Under the pieces are notes generated by a model. It had not been told where the DNA came from, ran no database searches, and was given only the letters and a program-made list of their open reading frames with translations. Below, one piece after another: positions 1,095-28,048 of a stretch of DNA of 64,000 nucleotides. This DNA is from a bacterium. Its GTDB lineage: Bacteria; Patescibacteriota; Minisyncoccia; UBA6257; WO2-44-18. Position 1 is the stretch's first letter; every line of letters begins with the position of its first letter. The stretch spans positions 99,680-163,679 of the forward strand of contig JAUSKF010000006.1 in the NCBI GenBank assembly GCA_030646995.1. The letters run 5' to 3'. Position numbers and translations under genes: made by a program.

Positions 1095-1207
1095 TATTCC
1101 GTCCGGCGAAAGCCGGATTTTTTATTATGGTAAACCCCCACACCAAACAAGGAGTTATACTTTCCGCTTTCTTGCTCCTTGTTGTGGTGTGGGGGTAAAA
1201 TTATTCA

Positions 1208-1654
1208 ATGATGGTAATCCCCGGAGTAGAAGGCGCCGATGCTGAATCAGTTAAGGCGCAATACGAAAAAGTTAAAGTAGTTTTGATTGAATGGGGCCAT
1301 GAAGTAGAGGACTGCGGTCCTTTTGAATATGACAACGATGATGATTATCCGGATTTCGTGATCCCAGTGGCAAAGGCGGTGGCGAAAGATAAAGAATCCC
1401 GCGGGATAGTATTCGGCGGATCCGGCCAAGGCGAAGCGATGGCGGCCAATCGTCAAAAAGGCATCCGGGCGGCGGTGTTTTATGGCGGTCCGGAGGATAT
1501 TATTTTGCTTTCCCGTATCCACAATAATTCCAACATTTTATCCATCGGCGCCCGTTTTATAGATGAGAAAGAAGCTTTGCGCGTCATTAAAATGTGGCTG
1601 GAAACCGAATTCGGCAAAGAAGAACGCCATCAGCGAAGGATCGAAAAATTTTAG
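1208..1654 (+). CDS. RpiB paralogue with rpe-derived N-terminus (chimeric; lacks N-terminal GxDHxG motif, possibly inactive)
   Basis: Residues 24-148 are ~85-90% identical to rpiB at 145..582, but the first 23 aa (MMVIPGVEGADAESVKAQYEKVK) match the N-terminus of Rpe at 4279; junction at the shared gaaaaagttaaag. Confidence 0.7.
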   Translation: MMVIPGVEGADAESVKAQYEKVKVVLIEWGHEVEDCGPFEYDNDDDYPDFVIPVAKAVAKDKESRGIVFGGSGQGEAMAANRQKGIRAAVFYGGPEDIILLSRIHNNSNILSIGARFIDEKEALRVIKMWLETEFGKEERHQRRIEKF

Positions 1655-1681
1655 CTCTATTTCAAGCTTTTTTATGAGGGC

Positions 1682-1711
1682 TTGACTTTTTAGGTCCTAC
1701 TATGCTATACT
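1682..1711 (+). promoter_or_regulatory. Sigma-70-like promoter upstream of DGR target gene (TTGACT-18-TATACT)
   Basis: ttgact at 1682-1687 and tatact at 1706-1711, about 80 nt upstream of the ATG at 1794. Confidence 0.5.
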
Positions 1712-1793
1712 TTCGACAGTTCCAGTCAAGGCAAGCTCTAGGTCTTGGCACATCGCCGCGATAAGGAGCAAGCCACAGAAAAAGGAGGGTCGT

Positions 1794-2420
1794 ATGTCCC
1801 AAAAGAGAAGTGAGTTTCTCGGGTCATTCGGCACCGCGTTCCAGGTTTTCAAGGCCCTGACGGACGAGGTGCTGGGTATGGGCGGCGGTGATGCTGACCT
1901 GCGTCGGATAGAGACCGACAAGGGTCTGCGTCAGAAGCTCGCCCAGCTGATCGTCGGCGTTCAGGAGAAGGCCGCGAACATCTTCAAGGTGATTGTGGAC
2001 TACTCGCTGTCGCTCGCCGACATGATCAAGCAGGTAAAGTCCGACTGGACAAACTCGGACATCACTGAGAGGCACTTCCCGCGCCCGTCGATCCCACGGG
2101 GCATCTCCAAGAAGGCGGAGGTGGCCTTGGAGCTGATACATTTCAACCGGAGTATCAGCTCTGACGATGCCATCGCCGAGCTCAAAAGGCTTGGCTACCG
2201 CCCCGCCACTATCTGGGAGCTCCTCGTTTTCGGGATGACCTATCCTGAAAAGCAGAGAGAATTCCCGATCGTGGCTCTCGGCTCGGTCTGGCGGCGCTGG
2301 GGTGGCTGCCGGGGCGTTGCCTATCTCTGGAGCTCTGCCGTCGGGCGGTACCTCTTTCTGGGTTGGTTCGAGGGCGGCTGGGTTGACGGCTATCGTTTCC
2401 TGGCCGTCCGCGAGTCTTAA
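1794..2420 (+). CDS. DGR target protein (variable protein with C-terminal CLec-type variable repeat)
   Basis: Strong RBS aaaaaggaggg; C-terminal 45 aa are encoded by the VR, which matches the downstream TR except at TR adenines; stop 7 nt after the VR end. Confidence 0.85.
   Translation: MSQKRSEFLGSFGTAFQVFKALTDEVLGMGGGDADLRRIETDKGLRQKLAQLIVGVQEKAANIFKVIVDYSLSLADMIKQVKSDWTNSDITERHFPRPSIPRGISKKAEVALELIHFNRSISSDDAIAELKRLGYRPATIWELLVFGMTYPEKQREFPIVALGSVWRRWGGCRGVAYLWSSAVGRYLFLGWFEGGWVDGYRFLAVRES
2276..2411 (+). repeat. DGR variable repeat (VR)
   Basis: 136-bp repeat aligned to TR 2697..2832 at offset 421; about 28 mismatches, every one at a TR adenine (A to G/T/C); the flanks gctcggtctggc, gttgcctatctctggagc and ctatcgtttcctggccgtccgc are identical. 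Confidence 0.9.
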
Positions 2421-2433
2421 CCGCCGGAGGCGG
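2421..2433 (+). promoter_or_regulatory. GC hairpin immediately 3' of VR (DGR cruciform/hairpin element)
   Basis: ccgcc-gga-ggcgg stem-loop 9 nt after the VR end and directly after the TAA stop, the position typical for the DGR hairpin. Confidence 0.5.
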
Positions 2434-2456
2434 TCAAAGACCCTTGGACCTATGCT

Positions 2457-2489
2457 CCGCAAGAGAAATCTCTTGCGGGGCTATTTTTA
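2457..2489 (+). terminator. Rho-independent terminator after DGR target gene
   Basis: ccgcaagaga-aat-ctcttgcgg perfect 10-bp stem followed by a T-run (gctattttt). Confidence 0.7.
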
Positions 2490-2696
2490 TAAACAAGAAA
2501 ATATTTTATAATTCAGAAAGACGAAACAGCCCGTGGCTACGGTTGCGGGCGGTCTGTAAGAAAATAAATAGACTCGGTGCCCTGCGCTAGGGAATTACAG
2601 ATTCCAAATGCGATACAATCCCGAGAGTATTCATCCCACACATAACAAGTTATGTGTGGGATTCAAAGGATGGTGGCTCAGGCGGCGCGGGGCACG

Positions 2697-2832
2697 AAAC
2701 GGCTCGGTCTGGCAGCACTGGAATGGCAACCGGAACGTTGCCTATCTCTGGAGCAATGCCGACAAGCGGAACCTCAATCTGAATTGGTTCGAGAACGACT
2801 GGAATGACAACTATCGTTTCCTGGCCGTCCGC
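2697..2832 (+). repeat. DGR template repeat (TR), noncoding template rich in AAC/AAT
   Basis: Counterpart of the VR; contains the adenines that are substituted in the VR; AAC-rich (NGNRN...SNADKRNLNLNWFENDWNDN in the VR frame); preceded by hairpin cccacacataacaagttatgtgtggg at 2635-2660. Confidence 0.9.
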
Positions 2833-2840
2833 TAGAATAT

Positions 2841-3182
2841 TTATTTTTTTAGCTGTTGTTTCCATCCCCCGATAATTTTGCCGATTTCGGCAAGGGGGAT
2901 AGAAATGACAGAGTATTTTTTATTATCCAAGGCTTTTATTTCCCAGGCGATCCGCAGAGACAGCTTGAGCAAGTCCAATTTTTGGCTGACTATTCTGATT
3001 GAATTACTCCGGCTTTCTTTTGAAGAGTAAATACTGAAATAAACAGCATCAACGAAATCCAGGAACTTCTCATCTATTTTGACGCCCAAGCTATAGCGAT
3101 GGAGTTTGGTGAGGTGCGGAAAATATCCGCTCCAAATTTTGTAGGCGTCAATGGATTTTTGTAAAACATCAATATGATCCAA
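2841..3182 (-). CDS. avd: DGR accessory variability determinant (Avd-like four-helix-bundle protein)
   Basis: 113 aa between TR and RT; C-terminal LAEIGKIIGGWKQQ resembles the Bordetella phage Avd C-terminus (AEVGRILGSWI) by recall; transcribed opposite to target, TR and RT; the start codon is uncertain because the first codon read from the displayed sequence is not a canonical start. Confidence 0.6.
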   Translation of the reverse strand: MDHIDVLQKSIDAYKIWSGYFPHLTKLHRYSLGVKIDEKFLDFVDAVYFSIYSSKESRSNSIRIVSQKLDLLKLSLRIAWEIKALDNKKYSVISIPLAEIGKIIGGWKQQLKK

Positions 3183-3191
3183 ATTCCGCCG

Positions 3192-3200
3192 GGGGGGGGG
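3192..3200. repeat. Poly-G (G9) homopolymer tract in the avd/RT divergent region
   Basis: Nine G at 3192-3200; lies between ATG 3174 and the RT frame; G8 would put ATG 3174 in frame with the RT. Confidence 0.9.
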
Positions 3201-3261
3201 CGTTATAGGTAGAACCCAATTCCGTCATAGTTTTGAGGATATTATTTCTGTTGAAAATCTT

Positions 3262-4188
3262 TTGGTTACTTGGCGGGAGTTCTTGAAAGGGAAGAGGGGA
3301 AAGAAAGACGTCCAGGAATTCGAGTTTAACTTGATGGATAATATTCTATCGCTTCACGAGGAGTTAGCAAGTCAGCAATACCGGCACGGTGGCTATTATC
3401 AATTCCGGATCGCCGATCCGAAACCCCGCATAATTCACAAGGCCGAAGTCAGGGATCGCCTAGCTCATCGCGCCATTCATAGATTACTATATCCGTTTTT
3501 TGATAAGACCTTCTTTGCCGACTCCTTTTCCTGCCGTGTCAAAAAAGGCACACACCGCGCGCTTAATCGTTTTCGGGCGATGGCTTATCAAGTCAGCCAA
3601 AACCATACCAAAACCTGCTGGGTGTTAAAATGCGATATCAAAAAGTTCTTTGATAGTATCAATCACGAAATTTTCCTGAAAATACTGAAAAAATATATCC
3701 CCAACCAGAAAATTATTTGGCTTTTGGAAAATGTCATAAATAGTTTCTCAACTAGATCGGGATTCGGCTTGCCTTTAGGCAATCTCACCTCCCAACTTTT
3801 CGCCAATATCTATTTAAATGAATTTGACCAGTTCGTGAAACACAAACTTAAAGTTAAGCATTACGTTAGATATGCGGATGATTTTGTAATTTTGTCAGGG
3901 GATAAACAGCAACTTGAATACCTAATTCCCAGAATCCAGGGCTTTCTCAAAGAAAATATTGGCCTCGTTTTACACCCGGACAAGCTTTTCCTGAAAACCT
4001 TTGCTATGGGGATGGATTTTCTCGGCTGGGTGCACTTTCCGGATCATCGAGTTCTGCGATCGGTTACTAAGCGGAAAATGTTTCGGAGGTTAAAAGAAAA
4101 TAACAACGAGCATTCCAGGCGGTCATATTTGGGGATGTTGAGGCATGGGAATACGGCTCTAATTAGCGGACAGGTCGTAAAGTTTTAA
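3262..4188 (+). CDS. DGR reverse transcriptase
   Basis: Motifs GNLTSQLFANIYLN and YADDFVIL closely resemble the Bordetella phage BPP-1 DGR RT as recalled (IGSLTSQLFANVY, YMDDIV); TTG start per the track; the RT frame is open from 3178 and the N-terminal homology (HSFEDIISVENLL) lies upstream of 3262 with no canonical in-frame start unless the G9 tract contracts. Confidence 0.9.
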   Translation: MVTWREFLKGKRGKKDVQEFEFNLMDNILSLHEELASQQYRHGGYYQFRIADPKPRIIHKAEVRDRLAHRAIHRLLYPFFDKTFFADSFSCRVKKGTHRALNRFRAMAYQVSQNHTKTCWVLKCDIKKFFDSINHEIFLKILKKYIPNQKIIWLLENVINSFSTRSGFGLPLGNLTSQLFANIYLNEFDQFVKHKLKVKHYVRYADDFVILSGDKQQLEYLIPRIQGFLKENIGLVLHPDKLFLKTFAMGMDFLGWVHFPDHRVLRSVTKRKMFRRLKENNNEHSRRSYLGMLRHGNTALISGQVVKF

Positions 4189-4278
4189 AAAAGGCATTCC
4201 TTATCCTGCTTACAAGTATCATACGACCGTACGATACTTGTAAGCAGGGCAGATGGATATATTTGCTAGAATTATCAA

Positions 4279-4932
4279 ATGGTAGTAATTCCCGGTATTG
4301 AGGGCGCGGATGCTGAGTCCGTCAAAGAGCAATATGAAAAAGTTAAAGATCTTAATCCAGAAGGCTGGGTGCATTTGGATATCACTGATGGGAAGTTTTC
4401 TCCGGCAGTGAATTGGGGCTCCCCCGCGGAGCTGTCTTCCCTAGTCGCTAGTCGTAAGTCGCTAAGTACTAAGTTTGAACTGCACTTGATGGTGGAAGAA
4501 GTGGAAAAAGTTCTGGATGGCTGGCTGAAGACCGGTTTAGTGAAGCGCGTCATCGTTCACCTTGAGGCGATGACCGATCCGGTATTTGTGGCGGCAAAAT
4601 GCAAAGAATATGGCGTTGAGCCAATGCTTTCAATCAAGCCGGAGACTGAAGTGGAGGGGTTGTTTGCCCACAAAGATGACTTCCGCTCTTTTCAGGTACT
4701 GGCGGTGGCTCCCGGTTGGGCGGGGCAGAAGTTTGGGGAGGAGGCTTTAAAGAAAATCGCATGGATAAGAGAAAAAATTCCGAATGCTATAATAGAAATA
4801 GACGGCGGAATTAATCCTGAAACCGCCCGTAAATGCTTTGAAGCGGGAGGGAGCGTGCTGGTTTCTACTTCTTATATCCAGAATAGCCCCGACCCCAAAG
4901 AAGCCTATAATTCGTTAGTCGTTAGTCGTTAG
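4279..4932 (+). CDS. rpe: Ribulose-phosphate 3-epimerase
   Basis: VHLDITDGKFSP, HLMV and IEIDGGINPET motifs of the Rpe TIM barrel; contains an internal tagtcg-type repeat insertion (LSSLVASRKSLSTK) and ends inside a heptamer tandem repeat. Confidence 0.85.
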   Translation: MVVIPGIEGADAESVKEQYEKVKDLNPEGWVHLDITDGKFSPAVNWGSPAELSSLVASRKSLSTKFELHLMVEEVEKVLDGWLKTGLVKRVIVHLEAMTDPVFVAAKCKEYGVEPMLSIKPETEVEGLFAHKDDFRSFQVLAVAPGWAGQKFGEEALKKIAWIREKIPNAIIEIDGGINPETARKCFEAGGSVLVSTSYIQNSPDPKEAYNSLVVSR

Positions 4933-23409: not shown

Positions 23410-23443
23410 ATTACTGTGGATAAGACCTCAATACCCCCCCCTC

Positions 23444-23451: not shown

Positions 23452-23513
23452 GATATAATTTCTTTAAGGCTATTTATAGCTAAAAACTCCATGAGATTTT
23501 TCCGTTTTCCATC

Positions 23514-23524
23514 GGGGGGGGGGG
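23514..23524. repeat. Poly-G (G11) tract inside the signal-peptide coding region of the giant surface-protein gene
   Basis: Eleven G; ATG 23491 (MRFFRFPSGGG...) is out of frame with the 1496-aa ORF at G11 and in frame at G10. Confidence 0.9.
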
Positions 23525-23557
23525 CGCCTAACTGTTCTTATATTTCTCAGTCTTTTT

Positions 23558-26500
23558 TTGGTTTCTCCAAGTCATTTATTTGCCAGAGAAACTATTGTTG
23601 CGGTTCCGGTAATTAACCCGTCTGTCATTGCGAGCGAGGCAAAGCAATCTAACACCATCATCGCCAGGTCAGTTGAGGTTTATCCCACCGCCAATCTTTT
23701 TGATAGTTTTCTTAGCGTTTTTCAAAATATTAGGGAATCGATACAGAATTTTGCTGTATCACTAATTAACCTAGCCAATCCCAAAGTTCCGGTAAGTACC
23801 ACTCCTCCACCCATACGAATTGTTGCTGTTCCCGTGTCTGCGACGCCCCCGGCTCCATCTGTCATTGCGATCCGCCAGCCGGCGGAGAAGCAATCTAACA
23901 TTGATGTGGTAAAATCCGTCTCCGCCCCCACGCCGCAGATAATATATATCCAACAACCTGCTCCGACCGGTACCGTAGGAGTCTCTTCCCAGTCCCAGTT
24001 AGATTCTTTGACTGCTGACCTGCTCGCCTTCAAAAAATCTCAGCAGGCCACGACCGAAAATCTGCAATACAATATGGGTCTAATGAGCCGCATCAGCTCT
24101 CTCGGCCCAGTCGGCAGCAATCCTCTTACAATTTCCAATCCAACATTCGCCGGATCTATTACGGGCATTGAAGACGGCGATATTCCCGACGACATCACCG
24201 CTTCCAATTACCTTTTGCGCGCCGGAGGTGAGCTCAGCGGCAACCTCACTATCGCGGGTAATCTCACAGTTGCCGGCGCGCAAATTTTGGGGGGAGGTGG
24301 TGGTTCCAATCCTTTTAGCCTTGGCGGCTCCTCCGCGCAGGGGACTTTAATTTTGGGAAATGGCACCACTGCTTCTTCTACGATTTCCGGCGAATACGGC
24401 AGGTTAGGTTTTGGTTCCACTTCTCCTTATGCCCAATTCTCCATTGAGGCCGTCCAGGGCGTAGTCGGTTCTTCCACCCCCGTCTTCGTTATCGGAGACA
24501 CAGGCTCTTCTTCTCTGCTCGTTGTCTCCGGAATCAATGGAGACGTCGGCATTGGCACCAATACTCCCGGAGCCAAATTGGATGTGGGAGGCTTTGCGAA
24601 TATCAAGGGGAATCTGAATATCTCCGCTACCTCCACTGCCGGTTCCTTTGTCGCCACTTCCACTTTGAGTGTCGGAACTTCAACTCCCGGAACGAATACC
24701 CAGCTGACGGTCCAGGGCAACTCCTATTTTACGGACGGATTATCTGTTGGCATCGCCGCCACAACTACCTCTGGATCCATCGCCAGCATTTTGCAATCGG
24801 CTGGAACTTTCTACGGCTCCGGAGTCGGCACTTCCTCATTTGAAGGAGGTATCAATGTGAAAGCCAACGGGGGAATTACTTCGGCTTCGGGATTAATCGT
24901 ATCGGCGGGAAAAGTTGGTATTGGAACGACGAATCCGTCGACGGTTTTAGATGTTCTGACGCCTGGTGGCTACCGATTGCTTTTCACGGACGACGCCAGC
25001 GCTTTCCAGATAACGGGTGTGAACTCGGGTATTACTGATAACGTTCCCTTGAGGATACAGGGTACTGATTTACGTTTTTATACAAATAGTGGTGGAGCGC
25101 AGGAACGACTTCGCATAACAACAGCTGGCAATGTTGGTCTTGCCCGAACCAGCCCAGATACTCTTCTTGATCTCGGGCGGGCGGGCGACGTGACCACTCG
25201 AGATTTAAATATTATTGGCTCTGACTTGAATATCGGCAACGGCATCCTCGCTACCTCCACTCTTTCGGGAGAATATGGAAAACTCGGTCTCGCTTCCACT
25301 ACTCCCTGGGGTCAGTTCTCCATTGAAGTCTCCGGAGTTCCCGGCTCCACCACTCCCGTATTCGTTATCGGCGACTCCGGCACCTCTTCCCCAATCTTCA
25401 TCGCCAACGTCAATGGAAGAATCGGTATCGCCACCAACACCGTGGATCAATATGGAGTTCTGGGTATCGGATTATCTGTGGCAACCTCCACATACATTGA
25501 AGGAGGATTGGGAGTGGGCGTTGCTACTTCTTCTGCCGGCGGTTTGTTCGTCAAAGGATCTGCAGATATTTATGGCGGACTAATTGTACGTGGCGGTAAA
25601 GTGGGCATTGGTACGACAAATCCGGGGTCAATATTAGAACTTAATTCTAATGAGCCAGTATTGCGAATGACAACCGGTGCGCCCGGAGGACAGTGGGATC
25701 TTATTGGCGGCAATGGGGTCGGTGTAGCCGTTGGTGATTTTGTTATTTTCAATGCTGGATACGGCAACACACCGTTTAGGATCATAAACGACGCAGGAAA
25801 CTTGAATAATAATGCGTTTATAATAAAAGGTGGCAATATCGGTATCGCTACTACCGTTCCAGGAACAAAATTGGACGTCCACGGCTTCGCCAATGTCGCC
25901 GGTAATTTAACTGTTTCTGCTACGACTACCACCGGATCCCTGATTGCCACCTCTACTTTAAGCGTAGGCACTTCCACGCCCGACTCCTTAGTTCAGTTCG
26001 CAGTTGGTGGAAATTCATATTTATCCGGCGGTCTTTCCGTCGGTCGCTCCGCGACGACTACCAACGGCGCCTTGATGGCGGGAGCTATTGATGGCACCAC
26101 TTTGAATCTCTCCGGCCGATTGGATTCAATCTTTACCGGCACCTCCACATTTGCGGGAGGGGTTTCTGTCGCCGGATTGGCTTCATCAAATGGATTGAAT
26201 GTAACAGCAGGAGATTCAGTTATCGGTCCGCTAAAAGTTGGGACGGCGGCGATTACGTCGACGGTGAGATTTTTTGGCGCTGACGGATCGACAGCCGCCC
26301 CCACATACGGATTTTCGTCCCGTACCGATGCTGGTATGTATAACGTTGGTAACGGGGAAATTGGGTTGGTCGGACAAGGCTCTCTGGAGGTTCGCATTTC
26401 ATCGGGGTCGGTTCAGATTGGGTCGGGAACCTTTTTGAATTTCGGGGGCACCACCGGATGGAAATATATCGCCGCTGCAAATATTCGGCAGGGAAACTCC

Positions 26501-28048
26501 TCCTCCGCCACCCCCATCGACCAGATATTCACCCTCGGCGAAGCGAGCAGGCCGGGGACGGATACTAACATTAGTGGTGCGACTGGAACGATTCAGAGCG
26601 GTCTAGGCACTGGGATTGGAACTGAATCATCGCTTATTTTTCAGACTCCAACATTGGCCGCTTCGGGTAGCGGAGTACAAACGTATGCAACGAGATTGAC
26701 TGTCGGTTCGGCAACTTCAACCTTCACGGGAGCCTTAACTGTGGGTGGTAGCGTCGGCATCGGCACCACGACCCCACGGGCAATGTTAGGTATCGCGGCG
26801 GGTAGCTCCACTCCCGGCCTTATGATTCAGACCGAGGGCAATACCGGGCAGGGAGCAATAGCAATCGTTGTCGATGCAAATGCTAACTGTAAAGACGGAG
26901 AATCAAACGGGGCCTGCGCTCTGAACGACTTGGCTGAGTTGTATCCAGTGTCCGAACCTCTGGAGAAGGGAGATATCGTGATGTTTGATGGTGGAGCGCC
27001 CGTTCATATAAAGAAAGCGACTAGTCGGAATAGTTTAGCTGGCGCAATCTCTACTTCTCCGGCCATCGTCTTTGAAGGCTCGATGATCAAAACAATGGGT
27101 GGAGTTTACGAGTGGAAAGGGAATACCGCTCCCCTCGCTCTTTCCGGTCGTGTGCCGGTGAAGGTTTCTCTAGAAAATGGCCCAATTCATATTGGCGATC
27201 CGATAACCGTGTCTTCTACTACTCCGGGCGTTGGCGTTAAAACCATCACCTCCGGCAAGATTATCGGTTATGCCCTTGATGATTTGCTAACCGCCACTAC
27301 TGCTCCAAATTCTTTTGATAAAATCCTCGTTTTCGCCAATCTCTCGCATTGGCAAAATCCGGATGAAATCTTAGAACCGTCTTCAACGTTTATTCAGAAA
27401 ATTATTGAGGCAATAACTGACTGGCTAAAGACTGCCGTTGTTACCATTAAAGAATTAGTCGTTGATAAGCTGACGAGCAAAGAAGTTAATACCGATAAAC
27501 TTTGTGTCGGCGCCACCTGCATTACCGAGAATCAACTGCAGGCATTGCTAAACCAAAATTTACCCGTCGCGGCGGGTGTGAACGGCGGAAATAGTCCTCC
27601 TCCCGCGCCATCGCCAACTCCCGCTCCTGAATCGGCCCCCGACACCGATGCGCCGGTGATTACTTTGAACGGATTGAATCCGACCGAGATTGAAATAGGA
27701 GCGGTATATTCGGATATGGGCGCCAATGTTACCGACAACGTAAACAGCAATCTTGGTTATAAGGTCAGCTTGGATGGTGGCCCGGAAACCTACCCCCAAG
27801 AGATGGAATTGGATACTTCCATGGCTGGCGAACATATCCTAATTTTTATTGCGATTGACCAAGCGGGGAATCGCGGAACCGCCTCAAGAGTAGTGAGGGT
27901 TGTGAATCCGAACGCTCCTAGCCCAGAACCGGAACCTAGCCCTTTTCCGGAACCCAGCCCCACCCCCGAACCTTCTCCAGCTCCCGAGCCATCCCCAACT
28001 CCTAGTCCCGCTCCCGAACCCATTCCTGCGCCCGAACCCGAACTTTAG
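23558..28048 (+). CDS. Giant secreted/surface protein (1496 aa) with fibre-like Gly/Thr/Ser repeats, Ig-like domain and Pro-rich C-terminal tail; probably phase-variable
   Basis: TTG start per the track and no in-frame ATG for about 170 codons; repeated KVGIGTTNP..L(D/E) units; region resembling the C-terminal modules of phage tail fibres (family not identified); C-terminal PEPSPTPEP repeats; located inside the type IV pilus locus. Confidence 0.75.
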   Translation: MVSPSHLFARETIVAVPVINPSVIASEAKQSNTIIARSVEVYPTANLFDSFLSVFQNIRESIQNFAVSLINLANPKVPVSTTPPPIRIVAVPVSATPPAPSVIAIRQPAEKQSNIDVVKSVSAPTPQIIYIQQPAPTGTVGVSSQSQLDSLTADLLAFKKSQQATTENLQYNMGLMSRISSLGPVGSNPLTISNPTFAGSITGIEDGDIPDDITASNYLLRAGGELSGNLTIAGNLTVAGAQILGGGGGSNPFSLGGSSAQGTLILGNGTTASSTISGEYGRLGFGSTSPYAQFSIEAVQGVVGSSTPVFVIGDTGSSSLLVVSGINGDVGIGTNTPGAKLDVGGFANIKGNLNISATSTAGSFVATSTLSVGTSTPGTNTQLTVQGNSYFTDGLSVGIAATTTSGSIASILQSAGTFYGSGVGTSSFEGGINVKANGGITSASGLIVSAGKVGIGTTNPSTVLDVLTPGGYRLLFTDDASAFQITGVNSGITDNVPLRIQGTDLRFYTNSGGAQERLRITTAGNVGLARTSPDTLLDLGRAGDVTTRDLNIIGSDLNIGNGILATSTLSGEYGKLGLASTTPWGQFSIEVSGVPGSTTPVFVIGDSGTSSPIFIANVNGRIGIATNTVDQYGVLGIGLSVATSTYIEGGLGVGVATSSAGGLFVKGSADIYGGLIVRGGKVGIGTTNPGSILELNSNEPVLRMTTGAPGGQWDLIGGNGVGVAVGDFVIFNAGYGNTPFRIINDAGNLNNNAFIIKGGNIGIATTVPGTKLDVHGFANVAGNLTVSATTTTGSLIATSTLSVGTSTPDSLVQFAVGGNSYLSGGLSVGRSATTTNGALMAGAIDGTTLNLSGRLDSIFTGTSTFAGGVSVAGLASSNGLNVTAGDSVIGPLKVGTAAITSTVRFFGADGSTAAPTYGFSSRTDAGMYNVGNGEIGLVGQGSLEVRISSGSVQIGSGTFLNFGGTTGWKYIAAANIRQGNSSSATPIDQIFTLGEASRPGTDTNISGATGTIQSGLGTGIGTESSLIFQTPTLAASGSGVQTYATRLTVGSATSTFTGALTVGGSVGIGTTTPRAMLGIAAGSSTPGLMIQTEGNTGQGAIAIVVDANANCKDGESNGACALNDLAELYPVSEPLEKGDIVMFDGGAPVHIKKATSRNSLAGAISTSPAIVFEGSMIKTMGGVYEWKGNTAPLALSGRVPVKVSLENGPIHIGDPITVSSTTPGVGVKTITSGKIIGYALDDLLTATTAPNSFDKILVFANLSHWQNPDEILEPSSTFIQKIIEAITDWLKTAVVTIKELVVDKLTSKEVNTDKLCVGATCITENQLQALLNQNLPVAAGVNGGNSPPPAPSPTPAPESAPDTDAPVITLNGLNPTEIEIGAVYSDMGANVTDNVNSNLGYKVSLDGGPETYPQEMELDTSMAGEHILIFIAIDQAGNRGTASRVVRVVNPNAPSPEPEPSPFPEPSPTPEPSPAPEPSPTPSPAPEPIPAPEPEL

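What the first reader, a model, noticed from the sequence alone, without database searches (positions are those of the whole stretch)
3174..3264. G9 homopolymer tract gates the DGR reverse-transcriptase reading frame (candidate phase-variation switch)
The RT frame is open from 3178 and encodes the conserved RT N-terminal region (HSFEDIISVENLL), but it has no canonical start codon before TTG 3262. The only ATG (3174-3176) is in another frame and terminates at 3210 (MIPNSAGGGRYR*). Removing one G from the G9 tract (3192-3200) fuses ATG 3174 in frame with the RT (MIPNSAGGGVIGRTQFRHSFEDIISVENLL...). The tract also lies in the leader of the divergent avd gene. Slipped-strand mispairing at such tracts is a classical ON/OFF mechanism. 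Applied to a DGR, it would make hypermutation itself phase-variable. Alternatively this is a homopolymer assembly error.
Basis: partly seen in the sequence, partly recalled or inferred. Interest (0 to 1): 0.75.

Follow-up and report, generated by a model that had tools for sequence, protein, structure and literature searches.

The report
Slippery G-tract gating a bacterial hypermutation cassette
A run of ten G's lies where the two enzyme genes of a targeted-hypermutation cassette (a DGR) overlap head to head. The same kind of unstable repeat is conserved at that spot in about 90% of 84 related cassettes, so it most likely makes the mutator itself switchable, which I found nowhere described.

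Summary
The tract is real, but it is G10 at 3191-3200, not G9. An independent Logan assembly also gives G10. It lies between the divergent avd (-) and RT (+) genes of a DGR with a clean A-only TR/VR pattern.

The RT frame has no canonical start before TTG 3262, and removing one G fuses ATG 3174 to the RT. TTG 3262 is not a conserved start.

The context changes the picture:
- A G7-G14 tract (mode G10) occupies this site in 72 of 81 distinct related Patescibacteria DGR loci. Five others carry dinucleotide repeats there.
- Only 3 other G/C tracts of 8 or more occur in 420 kb of flanks.
- Tract length differs between near-identical assemblies: G9 versus G10 in one lineage, and G9, G10 and GGTG8 in another.
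- In most loci the RT ATG lies downstream of the tract. There the tract instead sits in an avd N-terminal extension that starts at a minus-strand ATG, the complement of the RT's conserved His codon.
- The window's subclade lost the RT ATG through a 12-nt deletion, so the tract gates both genes. G9 would put both in frame.

The best reading is a slippage-dependent switch. DNA-level phase variation is favoured, and recoding during expression is the main rival. All evidence is in silico. No G9 allele of this lineage was seen.

The parts
3191..3200 (.). G10 / C10 homopolymer: the slippery tract shared by the 5' ends of RT (+) and avd (-)
   Evidence: Searches give G10. The Logan assembly L001 has the same G10. 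A homologous tract is found in 72 of 81 distinct related loci.
3174..3212 (+). Short ORF from the only ATG (MIQIPPGGGRYR*). It is the would-be RT start and comes into the RT frame with G9 or G12. The ATG is the complement of the avd His codon.
3178..4188 (+). DGR reverse-transcriptase reading frame (RVT_1, YADD box). It is open from 3178 and has no canonical start before TTG 3262.
   Evidence: dN/dS against subclade relatives is 0.05-0.11.
2841..3182 (-). avd (bAvd four-helix bundle) as callable from TTG 3182, which lies 8 nt after the C tract
   Evidence: The NCBI annotation is P0125. This TTG is not conserved in the closest relative, L109.
3169..3228 (-). Minus-strand ORF from ATG(-) 3228-3226, the complement of the RT His codon: MTELGSTYNAPPPAEFGSY*. 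With C9 it would read on into avd (…NAPPPRRNLDHIDVLQKS…).
   Evidence: This frame is stop-free up to the tract in 66 of 73 loci. It is the in-frame avd start in L074, L008 and L103.
2700..2835 (+). Template repeat (TR)
2279..2414 (+). Variable repeat (VR) at the 3' end of the target gene. It has 28 mismatches to the TR, all at TR adenines.
1794..2420 (+). DGR target gene (208 aa, no Pfam match)
3343..3370 (-). Weak sigma-70-like promoter match (TTGCTA-16-TAGAAT) inside the RT 5' region. It is positioned to drive an avd mRNA that includes ATG(-) 3228.
   Evidence: It is a consensus match only: 3 sites were found against 1.8 expected.

Best explanation
**What it is.** The G10/C10 tract is a hypermutable simple-sequence repeat. 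It is embedded in the overlapping, antisense 5' coding ends of the two DGR machinery genes.

**How it is arranged.**
- On the minus strand, avd translation starts at ATG(-) 3228, the complement of the RT's conserved His codon. It must read through the C tract (Pro-Pro-Pro) to reach the Avd four-helix bundle.
- On the plus strand, the window's subclade has deleted the usual RT ATG. The RT must therefore start at ATG 3174, the complement of an avd His codon, and read through the G tract (Gly-Gly-Gly).
- Each start codon is the complement of an in-frame codon of the other gene. One condition, the tract length modulo 3, therefore sets both frames at once.

**How it works.** At G10 both genes are out of frame. 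At G9 or G12 both are in frame. Slipped-strand mispairing during replication would create a minority of G9 cells that make Avd and RT and diversify the target gene. The bulk population stays OFF.

**Shown versus inferred.**
- Shown: the anatomy, the conservation, the convergent repeat types, the length polymorphism in related lineages, and purifying selection on the RT.
- Inferred: that ATG 3174 and ATG(-) 3228 are the real starts here, that switching is at the DNA level, and that it is reversible.
For: **The window**
- The DGR is bona fide and was recently active: RVT_1 and bAvd matches, and 28 TR/VR mismatches, all at TR adenines.
- The tract is G10 in two assemblies.

**Conservation**
- A tract is present in 72 of 81 distinct related loci: G7 x1, G8 x10, G9 x18, G10 x27, G11 x13, G13 x1, G14 x2.
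- Only 3 other G/C tracts of 8 or more occur in 420 kb of flanking DNA.
- The tract persists although synonymous sites are saturated (dS > 1.5).

**Convergent repeat types at the same site**
- (GA)n in L006 and L043, (GT)9 in L020, (CT)n in L026, and (AC)n in avd of L010.
- These repeats are either in frame or one repeat unit away from it.

**Length polymorphism on near-identical backgrounds**
- P0019 lineage: 10 assemblies with an identical RT protein. Seven read G10 and three read G9, and G9 occurs on both downstream haplotypes.
- L002 lineage: G10, versus GGTG8 in a 99.9% identical contig, versus G9 on 5 contigs of a 94.7% identical strain.

**avd really starts beyond the tract**
- Loci without a repeat (L074, L008) have avd in frame from ATG(-).
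- The closed genome CP066687.1 annotates a 135-aa Avd that reads through PPP, with TTA rather than TTG after the tract.
- About 20 of 74 loci have no canonical avd start after the tract.
- The ATG(-) frame is stop-free up to the tract in 66 of 73 loci. In the RT leader part it is open in 40 of 45 loci, against 27.7 +/- 3.2 in shuffles.
- The spacing from tract to RT ATG equals 1 mod 3 in 35 of 45 loci.

**RT of the subclade**
- The canonical ATG was removed by a 12-nt deletion (L066 versus L084).
- The RTs are nevertheless under strong purifying selection, with dN/dS 0.05-0.11.
- TTG 3262 is not conserved.
- L002 and L003 have the upstream ATG in frame at G10.
- In L109, the closest relative, neither gene has any canonical in-frame start.
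Against: - No polymorphism was seen in the window's own lineage. There are only two assemblies, probably of the same reads, and both give G10. No G9-type full-length RT at about 100% identity exists in the 5.8-billion-protein collection.
- The L103 lineage shows no variation across 6 fetched contigs; a further 7 contigs were reported as similar and not fetched.
- The in-frame state is rarer than chance across the family: 11 ON, 36 'needs -1' and 25 'needs +1' of 72.
- Six subclade lineages share the same 'needs -1' state. A freely flipping switch would scramble this.
- TTG is enriched at the Leu codon just after the tract, 29 of 55 against an 18% background. Avd may therefore also start internally, at TTG 3182 in the window, which would weaken the gate on avd.
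- Several polymorphic contigs have low coverage (1-12x), and homopolymers are error-prone.
- Related loci are not phylogenetically independent, so the counts overstate the number of events.
Confidence: 0.45

Rival explanations
1. **Programmed recoding during expression.** G10 is the stable, selected genotype. A fixed low fraction of product is made because the ribosome slips +1 on GGG-G (RT mRNA) and on CCC-C (avd mRNA), or because RNA polymerase stutters on the run. This keeps Avd and RT scarce rather than switching them ON and OFF.
For: - All six out-of-frame subclade lineages need exactly -1 nt: WIN, L109, L005, L084 and L088 at G10, and L087 at G11. This holds despite dS > 1.5 between them.
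- In every one, the ATG frame hits a stop 1-4 codons after the tract.
- Family-wide, the in-frame state is depleted (11 of 72) and 'needs -1' is the commonest (36 of 72). Within the dominant flank configuration, G10 (19 loci) far exceeds G11 (2 loci).
- The phase in which the avd leader frame enters the tract is conserved, at 1 mod 3 in 54 of 72 loci. A DNA switch would not require this.
- CCC-C is a well-known +1-prone site (established knowledge on tRNA-Pro, m1G37 and EF-P).
- A hairpin starts right after the C tract on the avd strand, with z = -2.4.
Against: - 25 of 72 loci need +1 nt instead, so no single shift direction fits the family.
- Dinucleotide repeats at the same site are not known ribosomal or RNA-polymerase slip sites.
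- DNA-level length differences between near-identical genomes do exist.
- Transcriptional slippage is documented mainly for A/T runs (my own knowledge).
- No conserved shift-site context exists beyond the run itself.
Confidence: 0.25
2. **Purely cis-regulatory tract.** The run is a promoter-spacer or leader element, and the ORFs that enter it are short upstream ORFs. In this reading Avd starts at TTG 3182. The RT starts at a non-canonical codon after the tract (ATA 3205), or by reinitiation after the uORF stop at 3210-3212. Tract length then tunes transcription or coupling, not the reading frame.
For: - In at least 45 relatives the RT ATG is downstream of the tract.
- TAnnnT follows the tract directly in 21 of 73 loci, with the ATG 7 nt further on. 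A CTGGCA-like hexamer lies 17-19 nt upstream. This matches a porA/opc-type promoter spacer with a leaderless RT mRNA.
- TTG is enriched 3-fold at the avd Leu codon after the tract.
- Depletion of the in-frame state is what one expects if the leader ORF must stay separate from avd.
- An in-frame ATT or ATC lies 4 codons before the His in all other subclade members.
Against: - No plus-strand promoter match lies at the tract in the window.
- The window has ACC where relatives have ATT or ATC, and ATA 3205 is AAA or AAG in four relatives.
- About 20 of 74 avd genes have no canonical start after the tract.
- L109 has TCT in place of TTG 3182.
- Loci without a repeat, and a closed genome, show avd reading in frame from ATG(-).
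- Synonymous GGT/GGA and AGA/AGG changes just after the tract suggest that the RT frame is already being translated there.
Confidence: 0.2
3. **Decaying cassette.** The window's RT lost its start and is now a pseudogene in an inactive DGR. The tract is an inherited relic.
For: - There is no canonical start.
- The window is the only subclade member that also lacks the ATT/ATC codon.
- No ON allele was found in public data.
Against: - The RT ORF is intact, with a YADD box, and dN/dS against relatives is 0.05-0.11.
- All 28 TR/VR differences are at adenines, with no decay-type mismatches in 133 nt.
- The same start-less configuration is kept in diverged lineages whose ORFs are conserved.
Confidence: 0.06
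4. **Homopolymer miscount.** The true sequence is G9 and both genes are simply in frame.
For: - Both G tracts of 10 or more in the window (3191 and 23514) are exactly one G too long for their upstream ATG.
- Homopolymers are error-prone.
Against: - The independent Logan assembly gives G10.
- Three assemblies of L084 all give G10.
- Four other diverged lineages, from different studies, show the same offset at G10 (L109, L005, L084, L088), and L087 shows it at G11.
- Family-wide, the offsets go in both directions.
Confidence: 0.04

Closest known systems
Intragenic poly-G/poly-C contingency loci (Neisseria lgt, hmbR and pgtA; Campylobacter jejuni phasome; PMC2192423, PMC3786947, PMC6321876)
   Same: A G/C homopolymer of 8-13 nt lies a few codons into an ORF. 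A change of +/-1 nt shifts the frame. Tract length differs between closely related strains.
   Different: - Here one tract is read on both strands by two overlapping divergent genes, so it would switch them together.
- The genes encode a mutagenesis machine, not a surface structure.
- The hosts are uncultured Patescibacteria.
- Reversible switching has not been demonstrated.
Promoter-located repeats (N. meningitidis porA poly-G, PMC3639595; Treponema pallidum tpr poly-G, PMC7864442; H. influenzae hifA/hifB TA repeats between divergent promoters, from my own knowledge)
   Same: The repeat lies between divergent genes. In a subgroup of relatives the tract fills a putative 17-19 nt spacer between a -35-like and a -10-like hexamer.
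   Different: No promoter match flanks the tract in the window. ORFs on both strands run into the tract, and spacer lengths vary in multiples of three, which points to a coding role.
DGR cassette architecture B3, TR-(avd)-RT (Wu et al. 2018, PMC5758913)
   Same: The gene order and inverted avd are the same. The cassette belongs to the CPR-type DGR RT clade, has a single target gene, and shows A-to-N mutagenesis.
   Different: That survey, and the other DGR papers I could search, do not mention a homopolymer or repeat at the avd/RT junction, overlapping avd and RT starts, or missing start codons.
Programmed +1 frameshifting (prfB type) and slippage-rescued genes (Thermus dnaX A9, endosymbiont poly-A tracts; from my own knowledge)
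   Same: The genotype is kept out of frame, a stop codon follows closely in the zero frame, and a G-rich run lies upstream.
   Different: No defined shift codon or context is conserved. Family-wide, both shift directions are needed. The run is G/C rather than A/T.

Membership tests
Diversity-generating retroelement (DGR), architecture TR-(avd)-RT | Reverse transcriptase of the DGR clade with an intact catalytic motif | tested here: met
   RVT_1 match at 7.6e-25. A YADD box is present in the ORF. The closest homologs are Patescibacteria DGR-type RTs.
Diversity-generating retroelement (DGR), architecture TR-(avd)-RT | A TR/VR pair that differs only at TR adenines, with the VR at the 3' end of a target gene | tested here: met
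   TR 2700-2835 and VR 2279-2414 differ at 28 positions, all at TR adenines.
Diversity-generating retroelement (DGR), architecture TR-(avd)-RT | An avd accessory gene on the reverse strand between TR and RT | tested here: met
   bAvd match at 2e-10 for 2841-3182(-). This is the B3 architecture defined in PMC5758913.
Diversity-generating retroelement (DGR), architecture TR-(avd)-RT | IMH element and hairpin downstream of the VR | tested here: inconclusive
   A GC-rich hairpin at 2454-2481 follows the target gene. IMH versus IMH* was not analysed.
SSR-mediated phase-variable (contingency) locus | A repeat tract of about 7 nt or more inside a 5' coding region or promoter, where a length change alters the frame or expression | tested here: met
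   G10 lies 17 nt after ATG 3174 and 28 nt after ATG(-) 3228. Removing one G restores both frames.
SSR-mediated phase-variable (contingency) locus | Tract length polymorphism among otherwise near-identical genomes | tested here: inconclusive
   - Met in two related lineages: G9 versus G10 in 10 assemblies, and G10, GGTG8 and G9 in another.
- Not seen in the L103 lineage: the 6 fetched contigs are all G10, and 7 similar contigs were not fetched.
- Not assessable for the window's own lineage, which has two assemblies, both G10.
SSR-mediated phase-variable (contingency) locus | Mixed tract lengths within one population, and reversible ON/OFF switching | not testable with these tools
SSR-mediated phase-variable (contingency) locus | Both ON and OFF states found among relatives | tested here: met
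   The register across the tract is ON in 11, 'needs -1' in 36 and 'needs +1' in 25 of 72 loci. In the subclade, 2 lineages are ON and 6 need -1.
Programmed ribosomal frameshift site | The same shift direction and a conserved shift context in orthologs | tested here: inconclusive
   The subclade is uniform: all need a -1 nt change, which is a +1 ribosomal shift, and a stop follows 1-4 codons after the tract. Family-wide, both directions occur.
Programmed ribosomal frameshift site | A stimulatory element (SD-like sequence or downstream structure) | tested here: inconclusive
   On the minus strand a hairpin directly follows the tract, with z = -2.4. On the plus strand there is none, with z = -0.96. 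Conservation of the hairpin was not tested.
Promoter-spacer repeat (porA/opc type) | The tract lies between -35 and -10 hexamers with a total spacer of about 17 nt | tested here: not met
   No plus-strand promoter match lies at the tract in the window. In 21 of 73 relatives TAnnnT follows the tract directly, so this feature may hold for a subgroup only.
Known RNA family | A match to an Rfam covariance model | tested here: not met
   No meaningful hit in 1500-4500, on either strand, at E <= 1.

The most novel reading that the evidence does not exclude
A single homopolymer, read as Gly-Gly-Gly on one strand and Pro-Pro-Pro on the other, lies in the antisense-overlapping 5' ends of avd and RT. 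It acts as a bidirectional frame switch that turns the whole DGR mutagenesis machinery ON in a minority of cells. This would be a stochastic switch layered on top of a targeted hypermutator. The device would be ancestral to, and conserved across, Patescibacteria DGRs of the TR-(avd)-RT type. It would have been re-invented with dinucleotide repeats in some lineages.
Probability: 0.4. Interest if true: 0.85.

Novelty: new variant of a known kind. Interest (0 to 1): 0.72.

Why it matters
How DGR mutagenesis is controlled is largely unknown (my assessment). Unrestrained hypermutation of a functional gene is costly.

A heritable, reversible, stochastic switch on Avd, and in this subclade also on the RT, would have several consequences:
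- It would let a small fraction of cells gamble on new target-protein variants while the rest keep a working allele.
- It would explain why many Patescibacteria DGR genes are annotated as truncated or start-less. Here NCBI calls the RT at 284 aa and Logan at 301 aa.
- It would warn annotators that these are not pseudogenes.
- It would give an easily testable handle, because tract-length counts in existing metagenomic reads could be compared with VR diversity.
- It would extend contingency-locus biology from pathogens to ultra-small groundwater bacteria.

A second out-of-frame G11 tract lies in front of a 1496-aa surface-protein gene in the same window. This hints at a wider set of such switches.

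Tried and rejected
- **TTG 3262 as the RT start: rejected.** It is TTA in L003 and L088, and the upstream codons show synonymous-type variation.
- **ATT/ATC four codons before the His as a conserved near-cognate start: rejected for the window.** The window has ACC there, and the equivalent residue varies in relatives with a downstream RT ATG.
- **ATA 3205 as the start: not conserved.** It is AAA or AAG in L003, L084, L087 and L088.
- **G tract as the Shine-Dalgarno sequence of the RT: rejected.** It lies 13-22 nt from the ATG in relatives that have a downstream RT ATG.
- **Protein-level need for a GGG or PPP motif: unlikely.** The run is a pure homopolymer although synonymous sites are saturated, and dinucleotide repeats replace it in some loci.
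- **Known RNA family: none**.
- **Promoter at the tract in the window: none on the plus strand**.
- **Metagenome scan with a subclade-specific DNA pattern:** only two extra loci, L089 and L090.
- **Looking for a G9 (ON) allele of the window's lineage among homologs: none found**.
- **A block of about 25 differences downstream of the RT in the P0019 lineage:** I tested whether it was a VR. No TR partner lies within the fetched 2.4 kb, so I make no claim.
- **Literature:** five full-text searches found no paper linking DGRs with homopolymers, repeats or phase variation.
- **Look-ups of P0002 and P0005 in the contig index:** nothing found.
- **Not done:** the surface-protein G11 tract was not followed into orthologs, to save the last large protein search.
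Full report
**1. What is in the window**

Positions 1794-4188 hold a diversity-generating retroelement (DGR). Its parts are:
- a 208-aa target gene (1794-2420, +) whose 3' end is the variable repeat (VR 2279-2414);
- the template repeat (TR 2700-2835);
- an inverted avd gene (2841-3182, -, Pfam bAvd 2e-10);
- a reverse-transcriptase frame (3178-4188, +, RVT_1 7.6e-25, YADD box).

TR and VR differ at 28 positions, all at TR adenines, and there are no other mismatches in 133 nt. The cassette has therefore been active recently. The gene order TR-(avd)-RT is architecture B3 of Wu et al. 2018 (PMC5758913).

**2. Checking the observation**

The homopolymer is G10 at 3191-3200, not G9 at 3192-3200. 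The rest of the description holds:
- The RT frame opens at 3178, after TGA 3175-3177.
- It has no ATG, GTG or TTG before TTG 3262.
- ATG 3174 is in another frame, reads MIQIPPGGGRYR and stops at 3210-3212.
- Deleting one G, or adding two, fuses it to the RT as MIQIPPGGGVIGRTQFRHSFEDIIS.

An independent Logan assembly of run SRR13727527 (L001) also has G10. Public gene callers could not place the start either. NCBI calls a 284-aa RT and Logan a 301-aa RT.

**3. The tract is a family-wide feature**

I fetched 80 related RT loci from species-representative genomes. All are Patescibacteria/CPR, at 55-86% amino-acid identity over the anchor segment used for the comparison. I added further loci from metagenome and contig look-ups.

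- A G run of 7 or more lies within 100 nt upstream of the conserved RHxFEDIIS N-terminus in 72 of 81 distinct loci.
- The lengths are G7 x1, G8 x10, G9 x18, G10 x27, G11 x13, G13 x1 and G14 x2.
- In 420 kb of flanking DNA of the same loci there are only three other G/C runs of 8 or more.
- Of the nine loci without a G run, five carry a dinucleotide repeat at the same place: (GA)n in L006 and L043, (GT)9 in L020, (CT)n in L026, and (AC)n inside avd in L010. L023 has a degenerate GGTGGGGGG. Only L074 and L008 have nothing.

Different repeat chemistries at one site argue that repetitiveness, meaning mutability or slipperiness, is what is selected. A specific binding sequence would not show this pattern.

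**4. Which gene does the tract touch?**

In at least 45 loci the RT has a canonical ATG (MKIQLxH…) 13-22 nt downstream of the tract. The RT frame cannot be gated there. The opposite strand explains the tract:

- The RT's conserved His codon (CAT) reads ATG on the minus strand.
- The frame set by that ATG is free of stops all the way to the C tract in 66 of 73 loci. The other two frames are open in 14 and 8.
- In the part that is only RT leader, it is open in 40 of 45 loci, against 27.7 +/- 3.2 in shuffles with a maximum of 38 in 1000.
- The leader length equals 1 mod 3 in 35 of 45 loci (13, 16, 19, 22 nt and so on). Indels there come in threes, as in coding sequence.
- In the two loci with no repeat (L074, L008), avd reads in frame from this ATG.
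- In the closed genome CP066687.1, avd is annotated as 135 aa running through Pro-Pro-Pro. The Leu codon after the tract is TTA there, which is not a start.
- About 20 of 74 avd genes have no ATG, GTG or TTG between the tract and the conserved LPVLQK motif.

I conclude that the ancestral avd start is this minus-strand ATG, and that the repeat sits about 13 codons into avd.

One caveat applies. TTG is three-fold enriched at the Leu codon just after the tract, 29 of 55 against 18% of other Leu codons. An internal start, TTG 3182 in the window, may also be used. The closest relative of the window's avd (L109, 87% amino-acid identity) has TCT there instead.

**5. The window's subclade**

The subclade comprises the window, L109, L005, L084 (= L085 = L086), L088, L087, L002 (with L089 and L090) and L003. 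All share a leader that is 12 nt shorter. Compare:
- L066: cgttaaatgaagaatTTTTATGAAAATtaaattgggccat
- L084: cgttaagggaagaat------------taaattccgtcat

The deletion removed the RT's ATG and put the former leader into the RT frame. These RTs are nevertheless under strong purifying selection, with dN/dS 0.05-0.11 and dS > 1.5. They must therefore be expressed.

- TTG 3262 is not conserved (TTA in L003 and L088), and codons upstream of it change synonymously.
- ATT or ATC four codons before the His occurs in all members except the window, which has ACC. ATA 3205 is AAA or AAG in four members.
- The only start common to the group is an ATG 14-23 nt upstream of the tract. It is the complement of an avd His codon.
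- That ATG is in frame in L002 and L003 (MQQRQNRRGGGVIGR…).
- It is one nucleotide out in the window, L109, L005, L084 and L088 (all G10) and in L087 (G11).

Each upstream ATG is the complement of an in-frame codon of the other gene. The RT-in-frame and avd-in-frame conditions are therefore the same condition. In the window G9 would restore both, giving avd as MTELGSTYNAPPP|RRNLDHIDVLQKS. In L002 both are in frame at G10.

**6. Is the tract unstable in nature?**

Yes in two lineages, and no in a third.

- *P0019 lineage.* Ten independent JGI/ENA assemblies carry the identical RT protein. Seven have G10 and three have G9. The tract is one of about five variable sites in 1.6 kb, and G9 occurs on both downstream haplotypes. 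In that lineage only G9 puts the minus-strand ATG in frame with avd.
- *L002 lineage.* L002 has G10. L090 is identical apart from two SNPs and carries a T inserted into the tract (GGTG8). The 94.7%-identical H51 strain has G9 on five contigs.
- *L103 lineage.* The closed genome and five fetched Logan contigs are all G10 and 100% identical; seven further contigs were reported as similar and not fetched.

For the window's own lineage only G10 is on record. No full-length ON-type RT at about 100% identity exists in the protein collection. Several of the variable contigs have 1-12x coverage, so some differences could be errors.

**7. The state across the family**

The register of the minus-strand ATG relative to avd is:
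- in frame in 11 of 72 loci;
- one nucleotide too long in 36;
- one nucleotide too short in 25.

In-frame is rarer than the one-third expected by chance (chi-square about 13, my calculation, not corrected for phylogeny). Within the commonest flank configuration the lengths are G8 x7, G9 (in frame) x4, G10 x19 and G11 x2. Genomes therefore sit mostly one step away from the in-frame length.

Two readings fit this:
- a switch kept OFF in the bulk population;
- a genotype that relies on slippage during expression to make a small amount of product.

**8. Mechanism: what I commit to**

The most likely reading (0.45) is a DNA-level contingency switch. Slipped-strand mispairing changes the run length and brings avd, and in this subclade also the RT, into frame in a minority of cells. 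This would make DGR mutagenesis itself phase-variable.

The supporting evidence is the DNA length polymorphism, the convergent repeat types, the position in the 5' coding region, and the presence of ON and OFF states among relatives.

The rivals are:
- *Recoding during expression (0.25).* It is favoured by the uniform 'needs -1' state of six diverged subclade lineages, by the stop that follows closely in the zero frame, and by the conserved phase of entry into the tract. CCC-C and GGG-G are +1-prone sites. It is disfavoured by the 25 loci that need the opposite shift and by the dinucleotide repeats.
- *A purely regulatory tract with internal or non-canonical starts (0.20).* It is supported by TAnnnT directly after the tract in 21 of 73 loci, with an ATG 7 nt on and a CTGGCA-like hexamer 17-19 nt upstream. 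The TTG enrichment also supports it. In the window no such promoter is found and no conserved alternative start exists.
- *A pseudogene (0.06) or a homopolymer miscount (0.04).* Both are unlikely for the reasons in sections 2 and 5.

**9. Comparison with what is known**

The element works like classical poly-G/C contingency loci of Neisseria and Campylobacter (PMC2192423, PMC3786947, PMC6321876). A subgroup may also resemble promoter-spacer repeats such as porA (PMC3639595).

What I did not find in the literature:
- a repeat at the avd/RT junction of DGRs;
- antisense-overlapping avd and RT starts;
- any link between DGRs and phase variation.

Five full-text searches and a reading of the main DGR survey found none. 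The library lacks most subscription-journal papers, so this is absence of evidence only.

**10. Verdict**

A slippage-dependent gate is plausible and is now backed by comparative data. It acts primarily on avd across the family and on the RT only in this subclade. DNA-level switching is not yet separated from expression-level slippage. I rate it a new variant of a known kind, with interest 0.72.

Noticed in passing
window 23491-23560 (G11 at 23514-23524; C8 at 23434-23441): A second long G tract. ATG 23491 (MRFFRFPSGGG…) is one G out of frame with the 1496-aa surface-protein-like ORF at 23558-28048. With G10 or G13 it would read MRFFRFPSGGGRLTVLIFLSLFLVSPSHLFA…, which looks like a signal peptide. 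As at the DGR tract, there is 'one G too many'. This could be a classical phase-variable surface gene, or a shared technical bias. A C8 run lies 73 nt upstream.
   Followed up: partly
window 1196-1277 and 4267-4348; also 190-530 versus 1265-1602: An 82-nt direct repeat (79% identical) covers the 5' end of the rpe gene. It brackets a 3.07-kb segment that holds a chimeric rpe'-rpiB copy and the whole DGR. rpiB itself is duplicated (88-582 and 1208-1654, 74-86% identical). The cassette appears to have arrived, or been duplicated, with its flanks.
   Followed up: partly
L006, L020, L026, L043, L010 (avd/RT junction): Dinucleotide repeats, (GA)n, (GT)9, (CT)n and (AC)n, replace the G tract at the same junction. 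In L043 and L010 they are read in frame within avd, as SLSLSLS and HTHTHT. In L006 and L026 they are one repeat unit away from being in frame.
   Followed up: partly
L031 and L036 (two contigs of one Kaiserbacteria MAG, MFLL01000027 and MFLL01000032): Two paralogous DGRs in one genome have the same flanks. One has G9, with the upstream ATG in the RT frame. The other has G10 and is out of frame.
   Followed up: no
L093-L102, about 50-120 nt downstream of the RT stop: In the P0019 lineage two sharply different haplotypes, with about 25 differences in 70 nt, sit in an otherwise nearly invariant 1.7 kb. No TR partner was found within the fetched 2.4 kb. It could be a VR or a recombination boundary.
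   Followed up: partly
window 2633-2662 and 4205-4248: Two perfect or near-perfect hairpins. One has 14-nt arms just upstream of the TR, which may lie in the 5' part of the TR RNA. The other has 21-nt arms right after the RT stop and is probably a terminator. The only Rfam hits are spurious miRNA matches to the second hairpin.
   Followed up: no
L109 / protein P0126: The ENA gene call for this close relative reads through an in-frame stop codon, giving W where table 11 gives a stop. The deposited call therefore probably used another genetic code. The contig has 1x coverage.
   Followed up: no
window 3100-3190 (-): A stem-loop begins immediately after the C tract on the avd strand and encloses TTG 3182. 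Its energy is -21.7 kcal/mol with z = -2.4. Conservation in relatives was not tested.
   Followed up: no
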